NCBI GenBank assembly: GCA_964398815.1
Contig: CAYNNZ010000004.1
Location: 8,074 to 72,073 of the forward strand
Direction of reading: 5' to 3'
DNA: 64,000 nt
Source of the DNA: an uncultured Candidatus Saccharibacteria bacterium
GTDB taxonomy: Bacteria; Patescibacteriota; Minisyncoccia; Phycocordibacterales; Phycocordibacteraceae
In this document: piece by piece, positions 3,087 through 62,384 of the stretch
How the letters are laid out: the number at the start of each line of letters is the position of its first letter
Position numbering within the stretch: position 1 is the stretch's first letter
Position numbers and translations under genes: made by a program
The notes under the pieces: generated by a model
Databases searched by the model: none
Seen by the model: the letters and a program-made list of their open reading frames with translations, nothing else
What the model was told of the DNA's origin: nothing

Positions 3087-4317
3087 ATTTGAAGCGGACG
3101 AGCAGCTTCTCGGACTTCCCTTTCTGCAGGACCGCGAGGCCGTCATTCAGGTCCGCCTCCCGGAGCGGTCGGTCCTCGGTAATCTGCTCACCATTCAAGC
3201 GAATGCCTTTGCCCTCGATAAGCCGGCGCGCCTCAGACTTTGATGCGACGAAGCCAGCGCCAGTGAGCGCATCGATAATGGACGTCTCAGCGACCACACT
3301 CGCAGAAGGTACGGAGGCGAACAGTGAGTCTCGCTCAGATGCTGAAAGCGAAGTGAAGGGAGCGGCGCCGAAGAGGACATCCGTGAATTTCTCGGCACGC
3401 GATGCCTCTGCCGCACCATGGACGAGCGCCGTGACCTCATCAGCGAGTTTTCGCTGCGCCGTGCGACGTTCAGGATTGCGGCCATGGAGTTCCATGAGCG
3501 CATCTATCTCAAACGGCGGGAGAAAGGTGAAATACTTCAGGTATTTGCCGACGATATCGTCAGGCTGATTTACCCAAAACTGGTAGAACGCAAACGGCGA
3601 GGTCTTCTTGGGGTCGAGCCAGACTGCATTCCCTTCTGACTTACCGAATTTTTTACCAGTTGAGTCCGTTACGAGCGGCGTTGTAAATGCGAATGCCTCC
3701 TTACCTGCCTTGCGTCGAATGAGCTCGACTCCTGAGAGGATATTGGTCCACTGGTCGGACGCACCTATTTGCACGTCACACCCGTATTTCTGATTGAGCA
3801 CGAGATAGTCGTATCCCTGGAGCAGTGAGTAGGCGAATTCAGTGTATGAAATGCTCTCATCGGGTGTTTCAAGGCGACGGCGGATGATATCGCGCTTCAC
3901 GAGCTCGTTCACCGTGAAGTGCTTGCCGATATCACGCAGGAAATCTACCAATTTAATCTTGAGAAGCCAGTCTGCGTTATTCACGAGGGTGACTTTTGCG
4001 CCGATAATGCGCTGCATTTGCTCGCGAAGCGCCTTTGCGTTCTTCGCTATGACACGCGCGTCTGCCAGTTGTCGTTCACCGCTCTCACGAGGATCGCCAA
4101 TCATGCCGGTACCGCCACCAACCAGCAGGATGATGCGATGACCCGCATCCGCAAGGCGCTTCATAGTAAGCACCACCATGAGATGTCCCGCATGCATGGA
4201 GTCCGCAGACGGGTCTACACCCAGATAGACCGTGCGCTTCGTCTCGAAAATCTTTGCAGGCTCTGCCGAGTGATGCTCGACGAGACCTCGGGCTTCCAAG
4301 TCTTTAAGTAAATCCAT
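3085..4317 (-). CDS. tyrS: Tyrosyl-tRNA synthetase (with C-terminal S4 domain)
   Basis: Motifs VYLGVDPSADSMHAGHL (HIGH-type) and KFGKSEGN (KMSKS-type). 410 aa with a C-terminal S4-like region. Confidence 0.95.
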   Translation of the reverse strand: MDLLKDLEARGLVEHHSAEPAKIFETKRTVYLGVDPSADSMHAGHLMVVLTMKRLADAGHRIILLVGGGTGMIGDPRESGERQLADARVIAKNAKALREQMQRIIGAKVTLVNNADWLLKIKLVDFLRDIGKHFTVNELVKRDIIRRRLETPDESISYTEFAYSLLQGYDYLVLNQKYGCDVQIGASDQWTNILSGVELIRRKAGKEAFAFTTPLVTDSTGKKFGKSEGNAVWLDPKKTSPFAFYQFWVNQPDDIVGKYLKYFTFLPPFEIDALMELHGRNPERRTAQRKLADEVTALVHGAAEASRAEKFTDVLFGAAPFTSLSASERDSLFASVPSASVVAETSIIDALTGAGFVASKSEARRLIEGKGIRLNGEQITEDRPLREADLNDGLAVLQKGKSEKLLVRFK

Positions 4318-17154: not shown

Positions 17155-17229
17155 GGCTTGTGCCCTCCTGCCCGTGTTATAGCACAGCAGAAAGCAAAAG
17201 CGACCTGGTTTCCCAGGTCGCTTTTGTAG

Positions 17230-34501: not shown

Positions 34502-35023
34502 TTAGTTTCGTTCGATATACTCTCGCGCCATCTGCGCATATAGGTCTGCCTGCTCCTCGGCAGCACTAATGGTCGCCTGCCACTGTTGGCGATATGGTTC
34601 CGGATTGAGCGGCTTCGCTGCGTTTGGATCATCGAGCGAGTCCATGTTCCTTTTTGCCTCTGCGTACTGCGAATTGCGCGCGAGTGTCCGCTCGCGTACC
34701 GCTTGAAGCGCGACTTCCTGTATGAGCTCTGGATTGCCGGCGAGGAATCCATGCTGTCCCAGTTCCTGCTTTAGTTCCGTCGCCATACGTTCAAGACCGT
34801 TGCGATCATTCGGCAGCCCAGCAATGCCACGATCGACAGCCGCGTCGATTGCTCCTTTGCGTGTAATTCGTTCAAGAATCGTTTCTGGGTCGGTTAGACC
34901 CTTCTCTGCATCCTCGATTTCCTCAGGAGCGAGAGTTCGTTCCTGACCCTCTTCTACAACGTGCACCTTGCGAAACGGCTGTTCTATTCCCATGGAGAGA
35001 GTATAGCAATCGATTACTGCCAA
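34502..35023 (-). CDS. Hypothetical protein (173 aa; TTG start, or ATG at 34993)
   Basis: Charged, helical-looking ORF immediately downstream of ung on the same strand. No recognised domain. Confidence 0.45.
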
Positions 35024-35679
35024 TCTATCGGGGTTTGGCCGCTCTCTGTTAGATAGGCGTTTGCCTTGCTGAAGGGTTTGCTCCCGAAAAAGCCGTTATA
35101 CGCGGAAAATGGGGACGGGTGCGGAGATTCAATGACGAGGTGTTTGCTGGTATCGATGAGTGATTTCTTTCCACGTGCGTAGTTCCCCCAGAGGATAAAC
35201 ACGAGATGCTCGCGCTCATCTGAGAGTTTCTTGATTACCGCATCGGTAAATCGCTCCCATCCCTGTCCCTGATGCGAGCCTGCGGCGCCTGCGCGCACCG
35301 TAAGCGTCGCGTTTAGTAGAAGCACTCCCTGCTTGGCCCAGCGCGACAAATCCCCTGATTCGTTCGCTGGCTTTCCGGTGTCTGTCGCAATCTCTTTAAA
35401 TATATTCTGGAGCGATGGCGGATTTCGCACACCTTCTGTAACGGAAAACGAAAGACCATGCGCCTGCTTAGGTCCGTGATAGGGGTCCTGGCCCAGTATG
35501 ACGACTTTCACGGCATCGAACGGCGTTAAGTCGAATGCAGCAAAGAGATTTTTCGGGTGCGGATAGACAGTCGCTGTTTCATATTCCTTCTTAACGAATG
35601 CGGCGAGTTCCTTGAAATACGACTCCTCAAATTCGTTTGCAAGATGTTCCCGCCACGAGGTTTCTATTTTCACTTCCAT
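35014..35679 (-). CDS. ung: Uracil-DNA glycosylase, family 1
   Basis: [22 protein letters not shown] (water-activating loop), [18 protein letters not shown] (Leu-intercalation loop region). Confidence 0.9.
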
Positions 35680-35787
35680 ACAGGAACTATACCAACCACC
35701 AATTAGAGAGACAGGAGTGTTAACCTTGCGATATATCGCAAGGTTAACACTCCGGTTGCGTGAGGTATCTCAATGTCTCAATGAGAG

Positions 35788-36579
35788 TTACTTCTTTACG
35801 ACCTTCATGCCGGCACCATGAAGCAATTTTTTTGCGGCTGTTTCGCGGTAGGGACAGAACTCACATTTCGGACCAGAGGGGGGAATGTCCGAAGAGTCGA
35901 GCGTCTCTTTAATTTTTGGCAGTACGTCATCTATCCAGTCAGCTTTCCCGGTGCTCGGCACCACCGTGACTTCGAACTCCAGCTGCCCGTCGAATGCTTT
36001 CTTATCGGTCGTTGCATTCGCATAGACGAAATATCCGGTATCAGAGACCTTGAATCCGTTATTCCGTAGGAGCCACTGATACACGCCCATCTGGCGCTGA
36101 TACTGCTCATTCCACGATGAGTCCTCGAGCGTGGTGATGGTTCCTGCCTTTGAGGTCGACTTGTAGTCCACGACCATGAGTTCCCCTGCCGGGTTCACCC
36201 AGATGTCGTCCACAGCACCCGAGATAGTGAATCCAGTCGGCTCATGGAAATATTCAACGCCCTCGAAATTTTCCCGCCACGTGTCGATATCCTTATGCTG
36301 ATACGGAACCGCATCGATGCCGTACTGAGTCATGAGTGGATGCGGCGTGCCTGCAGCTCGATGCACATCGAACTCCTTCTTAAAGAGGGCATCTACAGCG
36401 ATGTTGAGAGTGAATGCAGGTCCGCGCGGGCGCCCGGTACCGAGTTTGTTGTCCAAGTAGAAGCAACGCGGACATTCGTTGAATAGCTCGATCTTTGAGC
36501 GCGAGAGGCGCCACTTTGCTCCGCCGTAATTCCAGTCGCTGCTTCTATTTGGGTTGTACTTCTTTACGAAATCGCTCAT
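35788..36579 (-). CDS. PD-(D/E)xK nuclease, Cas4/RecB-like (DUF83) with four-Cys Fe-S cluster
   Basis: N-terminal C-x2-C (ECPRCFYLD), nuclease core VVDYKST (D-x-K) and QMGVYQWLL (QxxxY), C-terminal CEFCPY. No CRISPR array or cas genes nearby. Confidence 0.75.
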   Translation of the reverse strand: MSDFVKKYNPNRSSDWNYGGAKWRLSRSKIELFNECPRCFYLDNKLGTGRPRGPAFTLNIAVDALFKKEFDVHRAAGTPHPLMTQYGIDAVPYQHKDIDTWRENFEGVEYFHEPTGFTISGAVDDIWVNPAGELMVVDYKSTSKAGTITTLEDSSWNEQYQRQMGVYQWLLRNNGFKVSDTGYFVYANATTDKKAFDGQLEFEVTVVPSTGKADWIDDVLPKIKETLDSSDIPPSGPKCEFCPYRETAAKKLLHGAGMKVVKK

Positions 36580-36582
36580 GCC

Positions 36583-37419
36583 TTAGGCGTAACTATTACA
36601 CAAGGAATTCGCCTCGGCCAATATGCCCCCGATGCGCTCCGGAGATATGGAAATAGCGCGCAACAGGTCGCGATTCTGGCGAACCTGCTCGCAGGTAACT
36701 ACGCCCTGATCTATGAGTAGTCGCTTTTCCGCCTTCTTCAACATAGTGAGCGCAGTAATGGGATAGAGACCGGTCGCTACAATACGGTCATACAGACTTC
36801 CCTCTGACGGATAACTCCAGCCGAGGAGTTGGATACCGGAGCACTTGGCGAATTGGACCGCATCACGCGTGAATTTCGTATTGGTGATGAGGAATCCATG
36901 GTCCACCTTACAGGTCTTGTCCTCTTTCGGGTCGCACTGCCAGATATCGTCGAATCGCGCCTTCACATAGAGTGCGACTTTTACGTCGGTCTTGTAGCCG
37001 GGGTCGTTGTGGTATTTCAGTTCTGCTGCGAGATATTCTCCCTCGCGGTGCGCGTACACGTCCACTTCATGGGTAACGCACTTTCCGGGAATCATGCGCC
37101 GATACTCGACTTCCCATCCCTCTGCTTTGAATAATTCAGAAATGTAATTCTCGAATGGGTGGCCGGAAGGACCGAATTCAAAAAGCGCACGGCGTAGGCT
37201 GTAGCGCGCCGCTGCAGGACGTGCATCATGGCGCAGCATCTGGAATGCGCGCTTGTATATTTCTTGCGTCATCGCGCCGGCTGCAATGGAGCCCTCGATG
37301 GTATGTCGGATGCGCTCTGCAGTGTGCGTTGTCGCGCCCGCGCGGCGTAGCGACCATTCGAGCTTCATCCCGTCGAATGGCTCGACGCTTCCATCGGTCT
37401 TAACAATCTCAACGGACAT
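36583..37419 (-). CDS. ATP-cone domain fused to Mrr-like restriction-endonuclease-fold domain
   Basis: N-terminus MSVEIVKTDGSVEPFDGMKLEWSLRRAG is ATP-cone-like. Core GHPFENYISELFKAEGWEVEY...HEVDVYAHREGEYLAAELKYH is Mrr_cat/PD-(D/E)xK-like. TAATG overlap with the mnmA stop. Confidence 0.7.
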   Translation of the reverse strand: MSVEIVKTDGSVEPFDGMKLEWSLRRAGATTHTAERIRHTIEGSIAAGAMTQEIYKRAFQMLRHDARPAAARYSLRRALFEFGPSGHPFENYISELFKAEGWEVEYRRMIPGKCVTHEVDVYAHREGEYLAAELKYHNDPGYKTDVKVALYVKARFDDIWQCDPKEDKTCKVDHGFLITNTKFTRDAVQFAKCSGIQLLGWSYPSEGSLYDRIVATGLYPITALTMLKKAEKRLLIDQGVVTCEQVRQNRDLLRAISISPERIGGILAEANSLCNSYA

Positions 37420-41320: not shown

Positions 41321-41377
41321 GAGGAAAAGTATAACAAACGAAAAGCCGCCCTTTCGGGCGGCTTTTCGTTTGGCTGA

Positions 41378-49687: not shown

Positions 49688-50269
49688 CTACTTAGCTGCG
49701 CGCGCAAGCGACGCAATGGCCTTCAGATAGCGTGCTTTGCGTGCTGGGGTGCAACTCTCTGAATTTCCAAACTGCGTAAGGCTCACCTTATAGCCAGACA
49801 TACCAAGAGTGGCGTAGGAGATTTCGTTCGTGAAGTCACCGAATACGAGACGTATGAAAATTGGCGGCATCTTGGAAAGCGTAATGACTCGCGCCGTCTT
49901 CCCCGTCATCATGCGGTCCCATCCCATACCGTTCTTCCAGAAATGGAACGCAAAGCTGGGAAGCCAGATACGGTCAAAGAATCCCTTGAGTAGCGCAGGC
50001 ATTGCCGACCACCAGACTGGATACAGGAGCACGAAGTGGTCCGCCCACTTCATATCCTCCTGCACTTTCTTCAGGTCCGGCTCGAGTTCTTGAATTACCT
50101 TGTAGCCCTTGTGGAGAATGGGGTCGAACGAAAGGTCCCCGATATTCGCACGTCGCACGTAGTGGCCAGCATCGGCGGCCGCCTTTTCGTATGCATCGGC
50201 AAGTTCGTTCGTAAGTGTACCGTCCTTATCGGGATTACCCATCAGGATATAGATGTTCTTCTGCTTCAT
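49688..50269 (-). CDS. NAD(P)H-dependent FMN reductase / flavodoxin-like fold oxidoreductase
   Basis: MKQKNIYILMGNPDKDGTLTNELADAY...HFVLLYPVWWSAMPALLKGFFDR; Flavodoxin_2 / NAD(P)H-quinone-reductase-like. 193 aa. Confidence 0.7.
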   Translation of the reverse strand: MKQKNIYILMGNPDKDGTLTNELADAYEKAAADAGHYVRRANIGDLSFDPILHKGYKVIQELEPDLKKVQEDMKWADHFVLLYPVWWSAMPALLKGFFDRIWLPSFAFHFWKNGMGWDRMMTGKTARVITLSKMPPIFIRLVFGDFTNEISYATLGMSGYKVSLTQFGNSESCTPARKARYLKAIASLARAAK

Positions 50270-50327
50270 GCCGTAACTTTATCATGCGACCACCCCCATC
50301 TCCGTGTCGACTTTAGGGCGACTGGAA

Positions 50328-50361
50328 AAGTTAATAGTGCGATATATCGCACTATTAACTT
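50328..50361. promoter_or_regulatory. Perfect 34-bp palindrome (17-bp inverted repeat, no spacer)
   Basis: AAGTTAATAGTGCGATA|TATCGCACTATTAACTT. I checked that the sequence equals its own reverse complement. It lies between the 77-aa gene and the reductase gene. Confidence 0.6.
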
Positions 50362-50403
50362 TCTGTGTTGGTGGTGCCATCTATCGCAAGCCGTAGCGAA
50401 GAC

Positions 50404-50637
50404 CTATTTCTGCATTAAAGCCGCGAGTTCACTGCGGTATTTTTTCATTACTTCCATCGTCGCCTTCATCTGTGGCTCGCCTCCCTTTTTGACGCGGCGA
50501 TCCACCTCTTCGCCAATCTTCTTAAACAGTTCCGGGTCCTTCGTCACAAGCGCCATAATCTGCTCGCGCTGCGCCTCCGGCACGTCTTTCATTTTCGCCT
50601 TCATCATCTGGCGCAGGAAAAAATCTTGTACTCCCAT
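50404..50637 (-). CDS. Hypothetical small protein (77 aa)
   Basis: Lys/Glu-rich helical ORF downstream of the 135-aa gene. Confidence 0.45.
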   Translation of the reverse strand: MGVQDFFLRQMMKAKMKDVPEAQREQIMALVTKDPELFKKIGEEVDRRVKKGGEPQMKATMEVMKKYRSELAALMQK

Positions 50638-57742: not shown

Positions 57743-57946
57743 ATGCAGCGCGGCAAGATTTCCCAGCTGGGCGACCGCGAATCCGGCTTCATCAAGCGGG
57801 ATGGCGCGAAGGAGGACCTCTTCTTCCATTCTGATGCGCTTCAGGGCATCACCTTCCGCGAGCTCAAGAAGGGGGACAAAGTGGTCTACACCGAAATCAA
57901 GAGCATGAAGGGTCCCTACGCGACTAAGGTCCTCAAGGACAAATAA
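57743..57946 (+). CDS. cspA: Cold-shock protein (CspA family)
   Basis: GKISQLGDRESGFIKRDGAKEDLFFHSDAL...GDKVVY: RNP1/RNP2 motifs of the cold-shock domain; 67 aa. Confidence 0.9.
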   Translation: MQRGKISQLGDRESGFIKRDGAKEDLFFHSDALQGITFRELKKGDKVVYTEIKSMKGPYATKVLKDK

Positions 57947-57949
57947 CAA

Positions 57950-57976
57950 AACAGCCCCTCGGGGCTGTTTTGCTTT
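57950..57976. terminator. Bidirectional rho-independent terminator (cspA and the convergent membrane-protein gene)
   Basis: AACAGCCCC-TC-GGGGCTGTTTTGCTTTT. Confidence 0.65.
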
Positions 57977-57979
57977 TGG

Positions 57980-61780: not shown

Positions 61781-61800
61781 TCTGAATCCGTTCGAATGCA

Positions 61801-61825
61801 AAAGACCGCCCGAGGGCGGTCTTTT
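61801..61825. terminator. Bidirectional rho-independent terminator
   Basis: AAAGACCGCCC-GAG-GGCGGTCTTTTGCTATTT. Confidence 0.65.
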
Positions 61826-61826
61826 G

Positions 61827-62384
61827 CTATTTGAACTTCACCGAATCGAGAACATCGCTCACCTCCTTTACGACGACATCGTCTGCCGAGAGCCAGGTGT
61901 AGCTGAATACGTATATATGGTCCCCGAAGGAGACAATGCTGCTATTGCCTTCATAGAGGCCAGACCAGTCGAACGAGACTGCCGGAAGGCCGCCAATCAC
62001 GATTCCGTCACGAACTATCGATTGCTTGGTCCAGTTCGTATCCTGCCGCATCCATTCCTCTGGCGTGAGGTGCTGCGGGTTCTTATAGATATCGATGGTA
62101 ATGCTCGGAGGTCCTTCTCCCGCTACCGGCGCAGTGCTGTTTAGGATTGCGCGATTACTTTCCGAATTTTCCACAAGAACGACTGAGCGTTCCAGCTTTG
62201 CTTCGTTCGCGACGCGCTCCTTCATGTAGAGCGTGGGTCGATAGGTGAACGTAAGGCCCGCATTCGAGTATGTGAGCGTCCCTACCGTAGGCGGATTAGC
62301 CGTCTGGCGTGACTGGTAATGCCAGTATGCGAGTCCGACAAACACAAGAACGATTACTAGCAGGACAGCAAGTTTCTTCTTCAT
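61827..62384 (-). CDS. Hypothetical secreted protein (signal peptide/N-terminal anchor)
   Basis: MKKKLAVLLVIVLVFVGLAYW... followed by a soluble domain; 185 aa. Confidence 0.55.
   Translation of the reverse strand: MKKKLAVLLVIVLVFVGLAYWHYQSRQTANPPTVGTLTYSNAGLTFTYRPTLYMKERVANEAKLERSVVLVENSESNRAILNSTAPVAGEGPPSITIDIYKNPQHLTPEEWMRQDTNWTKQSIVRDGIVIGGLPAVSFDWSGLYEGNSSIVSFGDHIYVFSYTWLSADDVVVKEVSDVLDSVKFK

What the first reader, a model, noticed from the sequence alone, without database searches (positions are those of the whole stretch)
50328..50361. Perfect 34-bp palindrome in an intergenic region
AAGTTAATAGTGCGATATATCGCACTATTAACTT equals its own reverse complement over all 34 nt. It lies between the stop of a 77-aa gene (50404) and the start of a flavodoxin-like NAD(P)H-FMN reductase gene (50269). 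Flanking A- and T-tracts would allow it to act as a bidirectional terminator. However, a 17-bp AT-rich perfect stem is atypical for intrinsic terminators and more typical of a dimeric transcription-factor operator or other protein recognition site, for example a redox-responsive repressor controlling the reductase.
Basis: seen in the sequence. Interest (0 to 1): 0.55.

Follow-up and report, generated by a model that had tools for sequence, protein, structure and literature searches.

The report
Palindromic operator of TrpR-like regulator
The perfect palindrome upstream of the reductase gene is one of two copies in this window of a motif that, in related uncultured Patescibacteria, brackets the gene of an uncharacterised Trp-repressor-like DNA-binding protein, so it is most likely that protein's binding site and not a terminator.

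Summary
The palindrome is real and is 36 bp long (50327-50362), not 34. About 1e-6 such palindromes are expected by chance in the window. A second copy with the same register lies at 35714-35753, upstream of ung. Both share GTTAA-N3-TGCGATA|TATCGCA-N3-TTAAC.

The core CGATATATCG occurs 12 times in 702 kb of Patescibacteria DNA (0.64 expected), always inside a longer palindrome. One metagenome hit showed two copies bracketing a 132-aa Trp_repressor-family gene. Five further homologues, none chosen by motif, all carry a GATATATC-centred palindrome at or upstream of the start codon and another 2-12 bp after the stop. The core's flanking base (C or T) changes together with the protein's recognition helix.

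The best reading is therefore an operator of a TrpR-like regulator encoded outside the window. It would control the flavodoxin-like reductase and ung.

A terminator is unlikely. There is no T-run, the stem is AT-rich, and separate canonical terminators sit next to such sites elsewhere.

Two things remain unexplained. The arms are self-complementary well beyond the conserved core. Both window sites are also recent insertions into gene junctions that are tight in sister genomes. A REP-like dispersed-element component is not excluded.

The "redox-responsive" idea is untested.

The parts
50327..50362 (.). Site 1: perfect 36-bp palindrome AAAGTTAATAGTGCGATA|TATCGCACTATTAACTTT. Its centre is 75.5 bp upstream of the reductase ATG.
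   Evidence: It scores 29.2 bits with a weight matrix built only from 16 non-window sites. As RNA the hairpin folds at -23.5 kcal/mol.
35714..35753 (.). Site 2: perfect 40-bp palindrome GGAGTGTTAACCTTGCGATA|TATCGCAAGGTTAACACTCC. With one mismatch it extends to 35711-35756. Its centre is 54.5 bp upstream of the ung ATG.
   Evidence: The matrix score is 27.2 bits. The site is kept in the 95%-identical relative L107/L108, where the arms are a perfect 23 bp each.
49688..50269 (-). Flavodoxin-like NAD(P)H oxidoreductase gene (193 aa), the presumed target downstream of site 1.
   Evidence: Pfam PF02525 98.5 bits and PF03358 51.3 bits. It falls below all NCBIfam equivalog cut-offs.
50404..50637 (-). 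Conserved small helical protein gene (77-aa ORF, called as 67 aa in public contigs). In relatives it abuts or overlaps the reductase gene.
   Evidence: No Pfam or NCBIfam family was found.
35014..35679 (-). Uracil-DNA glycosylase gene (ung), the presumed target downstream of site 2.
   Evidence: NCBIfam NF003592 336.9 bits and TIGR00628 278 bits.
35788..36579 (-). PD-(D/E)XK (Cas4-like, four-cysteine) nuclease gene that ends 34 bp before site 2. In relative L109 its stop overlaps the ung start.
50372..50391 (.). Degenerate core-like sequence TGGTGCCATCTATCGCAAGC, 37 bp from the centre of site 1. It may be an auxiliary site or may be chance.
   Evidence: Two mismatches to the 14-bp core. The matrix score of 10.4 bits is at the noise level of shuffled sequence.

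Best explanation
The palindrome is a binding site (operator) for a dimeric Trp-repressor-family regulator. The regulator belongs to a ~135-aa subfamily that is widespread in Patescibacteria, and it is encoded outside this window. The protein reads the central 14-18 bp (TGCGATA|TATCGCA; family-wide invariant GATATATC). Site 1 would place the flavodoxin-like reductase under its control, and site 2 would do the same for ung. In genomes where the regulator gene was seen, one such site lies at or just upstream of its start codon and another just after its stop. That arrangement implies autoregulation, possibly by looping across the ~450-bp gene.

Shown: the two related sites in the window, the motif family, its strict association with the TrpR-like gene, and the co-variation of core and recognition helix.

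Inferred: that the window genome encodes the regulator, that the protein binds these sites, and that binding represses the downstream genes.
For: 1. A second site in the window has the same core and register. A matrix built from non-window sites scores both at 27-29 bits and nothing else above noise.

2. CGATATATCG occurs 12 times in 702 kb against 0.64 expected, and every occurrence lies within an extended palindrome.

3. On L091/L095, two palindromes with the identical core CTTGCGATATATCGCAAG bracket a PF01371 gene (42.3 bits, cut-off 27).

4. In five further homologue loci (L098, L101, L102, L103, L104), none selected by motif, every upstream flank and every downstream flank carries a GATATATC-centred palindrome (10 of 10 flanks).

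5. The core is CGATATATCG where the recognition helix reads KVS(S/P)STVAR. It is TGATATATCA where the helix reads KVT(L/P)QT(V/I)(M/T)R.

6. The site between proS and mreB is conserved in two genomes, with different flanks.

7. The protein model has a TrpR fold: the top 39 PDB hits are all TrpR or TrpR-like. TrpR-family regulators are known to bind ~20-bp palindromes and often to autoregulate (PMC9413887).

8. A terminator role is redundant or absent. The terminator scan does not call the sites. Separate GC-rich terminators follow the sites downstream of the regulator gene in L095, L101 and L102.
Against: No TrpR-like gene lies in the 64-kb window. The rest of the genome could not be fetched, so the presence of the regulator in this organism is assumed.

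Self-complementarity extends well beyond the conserved core, through sequence that differs between sites. Differences between sites within one genome are compensated (covariation 0.50 against 0.22 in shuffles, 0 of 500 shuffles as high; arms up to 24 bp). A simple operator does not require this.

Some sites lie between convergent genes (L093, and most sites downstream of the regulator gene), where no promoter is expected.

Neither window site is conserved in sister genomes.

The centre-conserved motif differs from the TrpR and HisR consensus sequences.

The position of site 1, about 34 bp upstream of the only sigma-70-like -35 match, is not a classical repressor position.
Confidence: 0.6

Rival explanations
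1. The palindrome is a dispersed, hairpin- or cruciform-forming repeat, REP-like. It spreads by insertion into intergenic junctions and acts through structure: mRNA 3'-end protection, RNase III processing, or DNA cruciform formation. The TrpR-like gene bracketed by copies would be the element's cognate binding protein, an arrangement that resembles a REPtron, and not an ordinary regulator.
For: Both window sites are recent gains in junctions that are tight in sister genomes: the genes overlap in L105/L109 and lie 21 bp apart in L106. The arms are complementary far beyond the conserved core, with compensated differences. Site 1 and the L092 copy differ only by one compensated change over 36 bp, yet they sit at unrelated loci. 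The hairpins would be stable as RNA (-23.5 and -32.6 kcal/mol, z = -6.6 and -8.5). Some copies lie between convergent genes. Bracketing of a single gene by the repeats resembles RAYT genes flanked by REPs (my own knowledge of REPtrons).
Against: The bracketed protein is a 132-aa all-helical HTH with no catalytic domain. Copy density is low: two strong sites in 64 kb, and one hit in about 580 kb of 80 related genomes. No sequence beyond the palindrome is shared between copies. The regulator gene sits in conserved chromosomal synteny (rseP, trpR-like, proS, mreB). The site upstream of mreB is conserved across genomes, as expected for a regulatory site.
Confidence: 0.2
2. The palindrome is an intrinsic, possibly bidirectional, transcription terminator that ends the transcript of the 77-aa gene.
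For: It lies 41 bp downstream of a stop codon. It would form a stable RNA hairpin. On the gene strand it is flanked by AAAG and CTTTT, like the A- and T-flanked terminators of this window (I4, I7, I10, I11).
Against: The terminator scan does not call it, because the tail has only 4 T, partly within the stem. Site 2 and the L089 copy have no T-run at all. Stem GC is 28%, while the window's terminators are GC-rich. A 14-bp core shared across unrelated loci and organisms is not a terminator property. In relatives the two genes are co-transcribed neighbours separated by at most about 30 bp or overlapping. In other loci separate canonical terminators follow such sites.
Confidence: 0.07
3. The palindrome is a functionless by-product of an insertion or template-switch event that created an inverted duplication in the spacer.
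For: The gain is recent and lineage-specific. Perfect arms are what an inverted duplication gives at birth.
Against: Two independent sites in one genome share the same 14-bp core and register, and both score 27-29 bits with a matrix built from other organisms. The core is invariant across all 21 sites. The spacer is identical in 8 strain-level contigs, and site 2 is intact in the 95%-identical relative while its flanks changed.
Confidence: 0.08

Closest known systems
E. coli TrpR and its trp/aroH/trpR operators
   Same: The cognate protein has the Trp_repressor Pfam domain and fold. The site is a roughly 20-bp palindrome for a dimer. The regulator gene carries its own operator, so it is autoregulated. 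The T and R of the recognition helix are conserved (STVAR against ATITR, PMC9413887).
   Different: The consensus differs: TGTAcTnGTnnACnAgTACA with a variable centre, against YRYGATATATCRYR with an invariant centre. The protein is 130-150 aa with an extra C-terminal helical part, and it is below the NCBIfam TrpR cut-off (20 against 67 bits). A second site lies just after the stop codon. The arms extend to 18-24 bp. The effector is unknown, and no trp genes are involved.
HisR (YerC/YecD-type TrpR-family histidine repressor) of Firmicutes
   Same: It is a TrpR-family repressor defined by comparative genomics. Its operators are lineage-specific 20-bp palindromes and autoregulation is frequent (PMC9413887).
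   Different: The HisR motif is cacTTTAnnnnnnTAAAgtg and its regulon is the his genes. The Patescibacteria protein is below the YerC/YecD cut-off (22 against 42 bits). A classical short YerC-like gene in L078 has no flanking palindromes.
REP elements and REPtrons (RAYT genes flanked by REPs)
   Same: These are short intergenic palindromes dispersed in a genome. Copies bracket a single-copy gene whose product would recognise them. Copies insert between genes.
   Different: The bracketed gene is an HTH protein, not an HUH/Y1 transposase. Copy number appears low. The palindromes are perfect with no loop and no conserved 5' GTAG-type tetranucleotide.
Rho-independent (bidirectional) terminators
   Same: It would form a stable hairpin downstream of a stop codon with A- and T-rich flanks.
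   Different: The stem is AT-rich and the T-run is short or absent. The core sequence is conserved across loci and organisms.

Membership tests
Operator of a TrpR-family (PF01371) regulator | A cognate protein with the Trp_repressor domain and fold is genetically linked to the motif. | tested here: met
   PF01371 scores 42.3 bits against a cut-off of 27. The top 39 PDB fold hits are TrpR or TrpR-like. The motif brackets the gene in 6 of 6 loci, 5 of which were not chosen by motif.
Operator of a TrpR-family (PF01371) regulator | A palindromic site of about 20 bp, suited to a symmetric dimer. | tested here: met
   The conserved symmetric core is about 14-18 bp, and columns 21-28 are invariant in 21 sites.
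Operator of a TrpR-family (PF01371) regulator | The regulator is encoded in the same genome as the window sites. | not testable with these tools
   None is present in the 64-kb window.
Operator of a TrpR-family (PF01371) regulator | Operator sequence and recognition helix change together across lineages. | tested here: met
   CGATATATCG goes with KVS(S/P)STVAR (4 loci), and TGATATATCA goes with KVT(L/P)QT..R (2 loci). The sample is small.
Operator of a TrpR-family (PF01371) regulator | Specific protein-DNA binding and an effect on transcription. | not testable with these tools
   This needs EMSA or footprinting and expression assays.
E. coli-type TrpR operator / HisR operator | A match to TGTAcTnGTnnACnAgTACA (TrpR) or cacTTTAnnnnnnTAAAgtg (HisR). 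| tested here: not met
   The consensus of the 21 sites is ..TTACGATATATCGTAA.. with an invariant centre, compared with the consensus sequences quoted in PMC9413887.
Intrinsic terminator | A GC-rich stem-loop directly followed by a T-run. | tested here: not met
   Neither site is called. Site 1 has 28% GC and 4 T. Site 2 has no T-run.
REP / REPtron | Copies flank a RAYT (IS200/IS605-like HUH tyrosine transposase) gene. | tested here: not met
   The flanked gene is a 132-aa HTH protein of the TrpR fold.
REP / REPtron | Tens to hundreds of copies per genome. | tested here: inconclusive
   There are two strong sites in 64 kb. L089 and L093 have window-like GC (54-55%) and come from an accession series (ERZ7245xx) that also yielded window-species contigs, but they cannot be assigned to this genome.
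Known RNA families (Rfam 15) | A match at the gathering score. | tested here: not met
   Only three tRNAs were found in the window. At site 1 there are only sub-threshold generic hairpin hits.

The most novel reading that the evidence does not exclude
Patescibacteria carry a REPtron-like system without a transposase. A small TrpR-fold protein has its gene bracketed by its own palindromic sites. New copies of these sites arise as long perfect inverted duplications that insert into tight gene junctions, splitting operons and wiring new genes (here the reductase and ung) into the regulon. They then decay outside the core. This would be a mechanism for rapid regulon turnover in minimal genomes, and it would explain why the recently gained sites have the longest perfect arms.
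Probability: 0.15. Interest if true: 0.75.

Novelty: new variant of a known kind. Interest (0 to 1): 0.5.

Why it matters
Almost nothing is known about transcriptional regulation in the Candidate Phyla Radiation. Their genomes are tiny and encode few regulators. This finding links a large uncharacterised protein family to a precise DNA motif. The family comprises 1,585 clusters at 50% identity with E <= 1e-10 and falls below the cut-offs for both TrpR and YerC/YecD. The finding also gives first regulon members (the regulator gene itself, mreB, ung, a flavodoxin-like reductase, a uvrD-like helicase and doxX) and an unusual architecture in which the gene is bracketed by its own sites. All of this can be tested directly with one purified protein and a few oligonucleotides. 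It also shows two sites that were gained recently by insertion into formerly tight operon junctions, a visible case of regulon rewiring.

Tried and rejected
1. Conservation upstream of the reductase. In 80 related genomes the palindrome is absent, and several have no spacer at all. Footprinting at this locus failed and showed instead that the site is a recent gain.

2. An exact scan of species-representative genomes with TTAA-N3-core-N3-TTAA gave 0 hits. A viral contig scan also gave 0 hits.

3. A longer mobile element (MITE). There is no flank similarity between sites beyond the palindrome, apart from homologous coding sequence.

4. A regulator in the window. tblastn and a profile search found none. 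The adjacent 77-aa and 135-aa proteins have no family.

5. Known motifs recalled from memory were considered and set aside because their sequence or spacing does not fit: CIRCE, the BirA box, the NrdR box, dif, attC, LexA boxes and protelomerase sites. Only LexA was followed up, with a literature search that gave nothing usable.

6. Rfam gave nothing.

7. Literature searches for the core sequence and for TrpR-like regulators in CPR found nothing relevant.

8. Promoter prediction gave one weak sigma-70-like match downstream of site 1 and none at site 2. The position of the sites relative to transcription starts therefore remains unknown.

Full report
**Observation.** The sequence reported at 50328-50361 is present. 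Self-complementarity extends one base further on each side, so the perfect palindrome is 36 bp long: 50327-50362, AAAGTTAATAGTGCGATA|TATCGCACTATTAACTTT. From the window's base composition, 1.1e-6 zero-spacer palindromes with 18-bp arms are expected in 64 kb. The element has 28% GC in a 55% GC window. Both neighbouring genes are on the minus strand. The palindrome lies 41 bp after the stop of a small conserved ORF (50404-50637) and ends 57 bp before the ATG of a 193-aa Flavodoxin_2/FMN_red protein (49688-50269). The organism belongs to the Parcubacteria/Paceibacteria group of Patescibacteria, judging from the source names of the closest homologues and related contigs.

**A second copy in the window.** A search for the half-site found a second palindrome at 35714-35753: GGAGTGTTAACCTTGCGATA|TATCGCAAGGTTAACACTCC, 40 bp perfect, or 46 bp with one mismatch. 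It has the same register as site 1. The two share GTTAA-N3-TGCGATA|TATCGCA-N3-TTAAC. It sits between the stop of a Cas4-like PD-(D/E)XK nuclease gene and the ATG of ung. The window's evident terminators are different objects: GC-rich stems with a 2-4-nt loop and A/T-run flanks (I4, I7, I10, I11). The terminator scan calls neither palindrome, although both would fold stably as RNA (-23.5 and -32.6 kcal/mol). Rfam has nothing at either site.

**Not conserved at this locus.** I collected 80 genomes with a reductase homologue. Synteny is kept (atpC, a 135-aa gene, the small gene, the reductase, ychF), but the palindrome is absent.
- In many relatives the small gene and the reductase gene are 10-30 bp apart.
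- In the nearest relatives they overlap (L105, reductase 91% identical) or lie 21 bp apart (L106, 84%).
- Site 2 is kept in a 95%-identical relative (L107/L108), where the arms are a perfect 23 bp each. It is absent in L109, which is the same contig as L105; there the nuclease stop and the ung start overlap as TAATG. It is also absent in L110.

Both window sites are therefore recent, lineage-specific gains in junctions that are tight in sister genomes.

**A motif family.**
- An exact scan of species-representative genomes gave nothing.
- A scan of metagenome contigs with TAA-N3-TGCGATATATCGCA-N3-TTA gave five distinct foreign loci. None resembles the window outside the motif.
- Each foreign locus is its own near-perfect palindrome, and its arms run beyond the shared part through unrelated sequence. 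L089 is 48 bp. L092 is 36 bp and differs from site 1 only by one compensated change.
- Contexts vary: after htpX, between a GNAT gene and doxX, upstream of a uvrD-like helicase, and between convergent genes.
Every occurrence lies inside an extended palindrome.

**Link to a regulator.**
- Contig L091 has two copies 450 bp apart. They bracket a 132-aa gene that matches Pfam Trp_repressor (42.3 bits, cut-off 27).
- One copy (38 bp, perfect) ends 28 bp before the ATG. The other begins at the stop codon.
- I then fetched five homologues of this protein, chosen by protein similarity only. Their identities to it in the full alignment range from 78% down to 36%, and they come from different contexts.
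- In every one, a GATATATC-centred palindrome lies at or upstream of the start codon. In L101, L102 and L104 it overlaps the ATG. L098 and L102 have two upstream sites.
- In every one, another such palindrome lies 2-12 bp after the stop. That is 10 of 10 flanks.
- The base flanking the core changes with the protein. CGATATATCG accompanies recognition helix KVS(S/P)STVAR (P0121, P0122, P0124, P0126). TGATATATCA accompanies KVT(L/P)QT(V/I)(M/T)R (P0128, P0129).
- The gene sits in conserved chromosomal synteny (rseP, trpR-like, proS, mreB), so it is not an obvious mobile element.
- A further site between proS and mreB is shared by L098 and L061, with different flanks.
- A classical short YerC-type gene in L078 has no such palindromes.
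- The protein model (pLDDT 74.5; 80-91 over residues 11-100) matches TrpR and TrpR-like crystal structures in its top 39 PDB hits.
- By sequence the protein is below the NCBIfam cut-offs for both TrpR and YerC/YecD.
- The subfamily is large: 1,585 clusters at 50% identity with E <= 1e-10, nearly all 130-145 aa.
- TrpR-family regulators are known to bind ~20-bp palindromes and often to regulate their own genes. Their published consensus sequences differ from this motif (PMC9413887).

**Back to the window.** A weight matrix built from 16 sites outside the window scores site 1 at 29.2 bits and site 2 at 27.2 bits. The next hit scores 10.9 bits, which is within the noise of shuffled sequence. The window has no TrpR-like gene. 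The regulator must therefore be encoded elsewhere in the genome. I could not check this, because the collection scans and contig look-ups were exhausted.

**Mechanism proposed.** A TrpR-like dimer reads the central 14-18 bp. Through site 1 it controls the reductase, and through site 2 it controls ung. It regulates its own gene through the bracketing pair, possibly by looping. The association and the co-variation are shown. Binding, the direction of regulation and the effector are inferred. A terminator role is unlikely: there are no T-runs, the core is conserved across organisms, and separate canonical terminators follow the downstream sites in L095, L101 and L102.

**What this does not explain.**
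- On an ungapped alignment of 21 sites, a hairpin pairing column i with column 49-i is 72% paired, against 55% in shuffles. The covariation score is 0.50 against 0.22 in shuffles (0 of 500 as high) and against 0.15-0.23 when the partners are slid.
- Complementarity is strong out to about +/-13 and reaches 18-24 bp in several sites.
- Sites within one genome differ from each other, yet each is internally compensated (site 1 against site 2; L095 upstream against downstream; L103 upstream against downstream).
- A simple operator does not need this.
- The two window sites, which are demonstrably young, have long perfect arms. The site upstream of mreB, which is conserved between genomes, has shorter arms (10 and 15 bp). 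This fits sites that are born as perfect inverted duplications and then decay outside the core. The sample is small, however, and selection for a hairpin or cruciform is equally possible.
- Flanks beyond the palindromes share nothing, so no longer mobile element is involved.
- A REP-like reading, with the TrpR-like gene in a REPtron-like arrangement, stays open at about 0.2. The evidence against it is the lack of any catalytic domain, the low copy density, the chromosomal synteny of the gene and the conserved mreB site.

**Comparison with known systems and novelty.** The element works like a TrpR/HisR-type operator, but it does not match either consensus and the protein is a distinct, longer subfamily. 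Bracketing of the gene by a 5' and a 3' site, and the very long perfect arms, are not features I know from TrpR or HisR. Full-text searches for the core sequence and for TrpR-like regulators in CPR found nothing relevant. I rate it a new variant of a known kind, of moderate interest. It gives a testable protein-motif pair and first regulon members for a large uncharacterised regulator family in a poorly understood phylum, together with an unexplained tendency to perfect extended palindromy.

**Caveats.** Five of the 21 sites were found with a pattern that fixed the core and the TAA/TTA flanks, so their core identity is by construction. The unbiased evidence is the second window site, the ten flanks of the five homologue loci, the proS-mreB sites and the matrix scan. 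The helix-to-core correlation rests on six loci.

Noticed in passing
L065 5035-5080; L072 5007-5048; L085 4971-5014; L052 4939-4974: A second family of 36-46-bp palindromes, CCTGTATAGTATAA-(inner arm)-TTATACTATACAGG followed by a T-run, lies upstream of ychF in four Paceibacteria genomes. The outer arms, which contain a TATAAT-like box, are conserved. The inner arms differ but stay complementary.
   Followed up: partly
L061 1764-1815: A 52-bp perfect palindrome (TAACAACATACACTTATTACTTCCTA|TAGGAAG...) lies 45 bp from the CGATATATCG site, between proS and mreB. It is the longest palindrome in all the DNA examined.
   Followed up: no
L009 about 3920-3935 and L038 (upstream of the reductase homologue): In these two genomes the spacer between the small gene and the reductase is also about 140 bp long, but it carries a different palindrome, CGTACT-N3-AGTACG. 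This may be the site of another regulator at the same junction.
   Followed up: no
L063 1724-1753: A perfect 30-bp palindrome, AGAAAATAGATACGA|TCGTATCTATTTTCT, lies 14 bp upstream of the reductase homologue. It resembles site 1 in style (AATAG...CTATT arms) but has a CGATCG centre.
   Followed up: no
L092 1004-1043: A second hairpin, GAAAGGAAAATAGAGCGA-cgta-TCGCTCTATTTTCCTTTC, lies 17 bp from that contig's GATATATC palindrome, upstream of a uvrD-like helicase gene.
   Followed up: no
L004, L006 and L007, position 1 (equivalent to window about 50356): Three Logan contigs of the same species begin inside the site 1 palindrome. This is probably an assembly break caused by a perfect palindrome longer than the k-mer. 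Such elements may be under-represented or split in short-read assemblies.
   Followed up: partly
window 36583-37419 and 35788-36579: An ATP-cone plus Mrr_cat (restriction-endonuclease-like) protein and a Cas4-like four-cysteine PD-(D/E)XK nuclease form a conserved gene pair directly upstream of ung, in this genome and in four related loci (L107-L110).
   Followed up: partly
window 50372-50391: A degenerate core-like sequence, TGGTGCCATCTATCGCAAGC, lies 37 bp from the centre of site 1. Its score is at noise level, but L098 also has paired imperfect sites upstream of the regulator gene.
   Followed up: partly
window 41335-41372, 17195-17226, 61798-61827, 57942-57977: The terminators of this genome are extended palindromes of the form CAAAAG-GC stem-loop-GC stem-CTTTTG. 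The A-run pairs with the T-run, so they could act in both directions.
   Followed up: no
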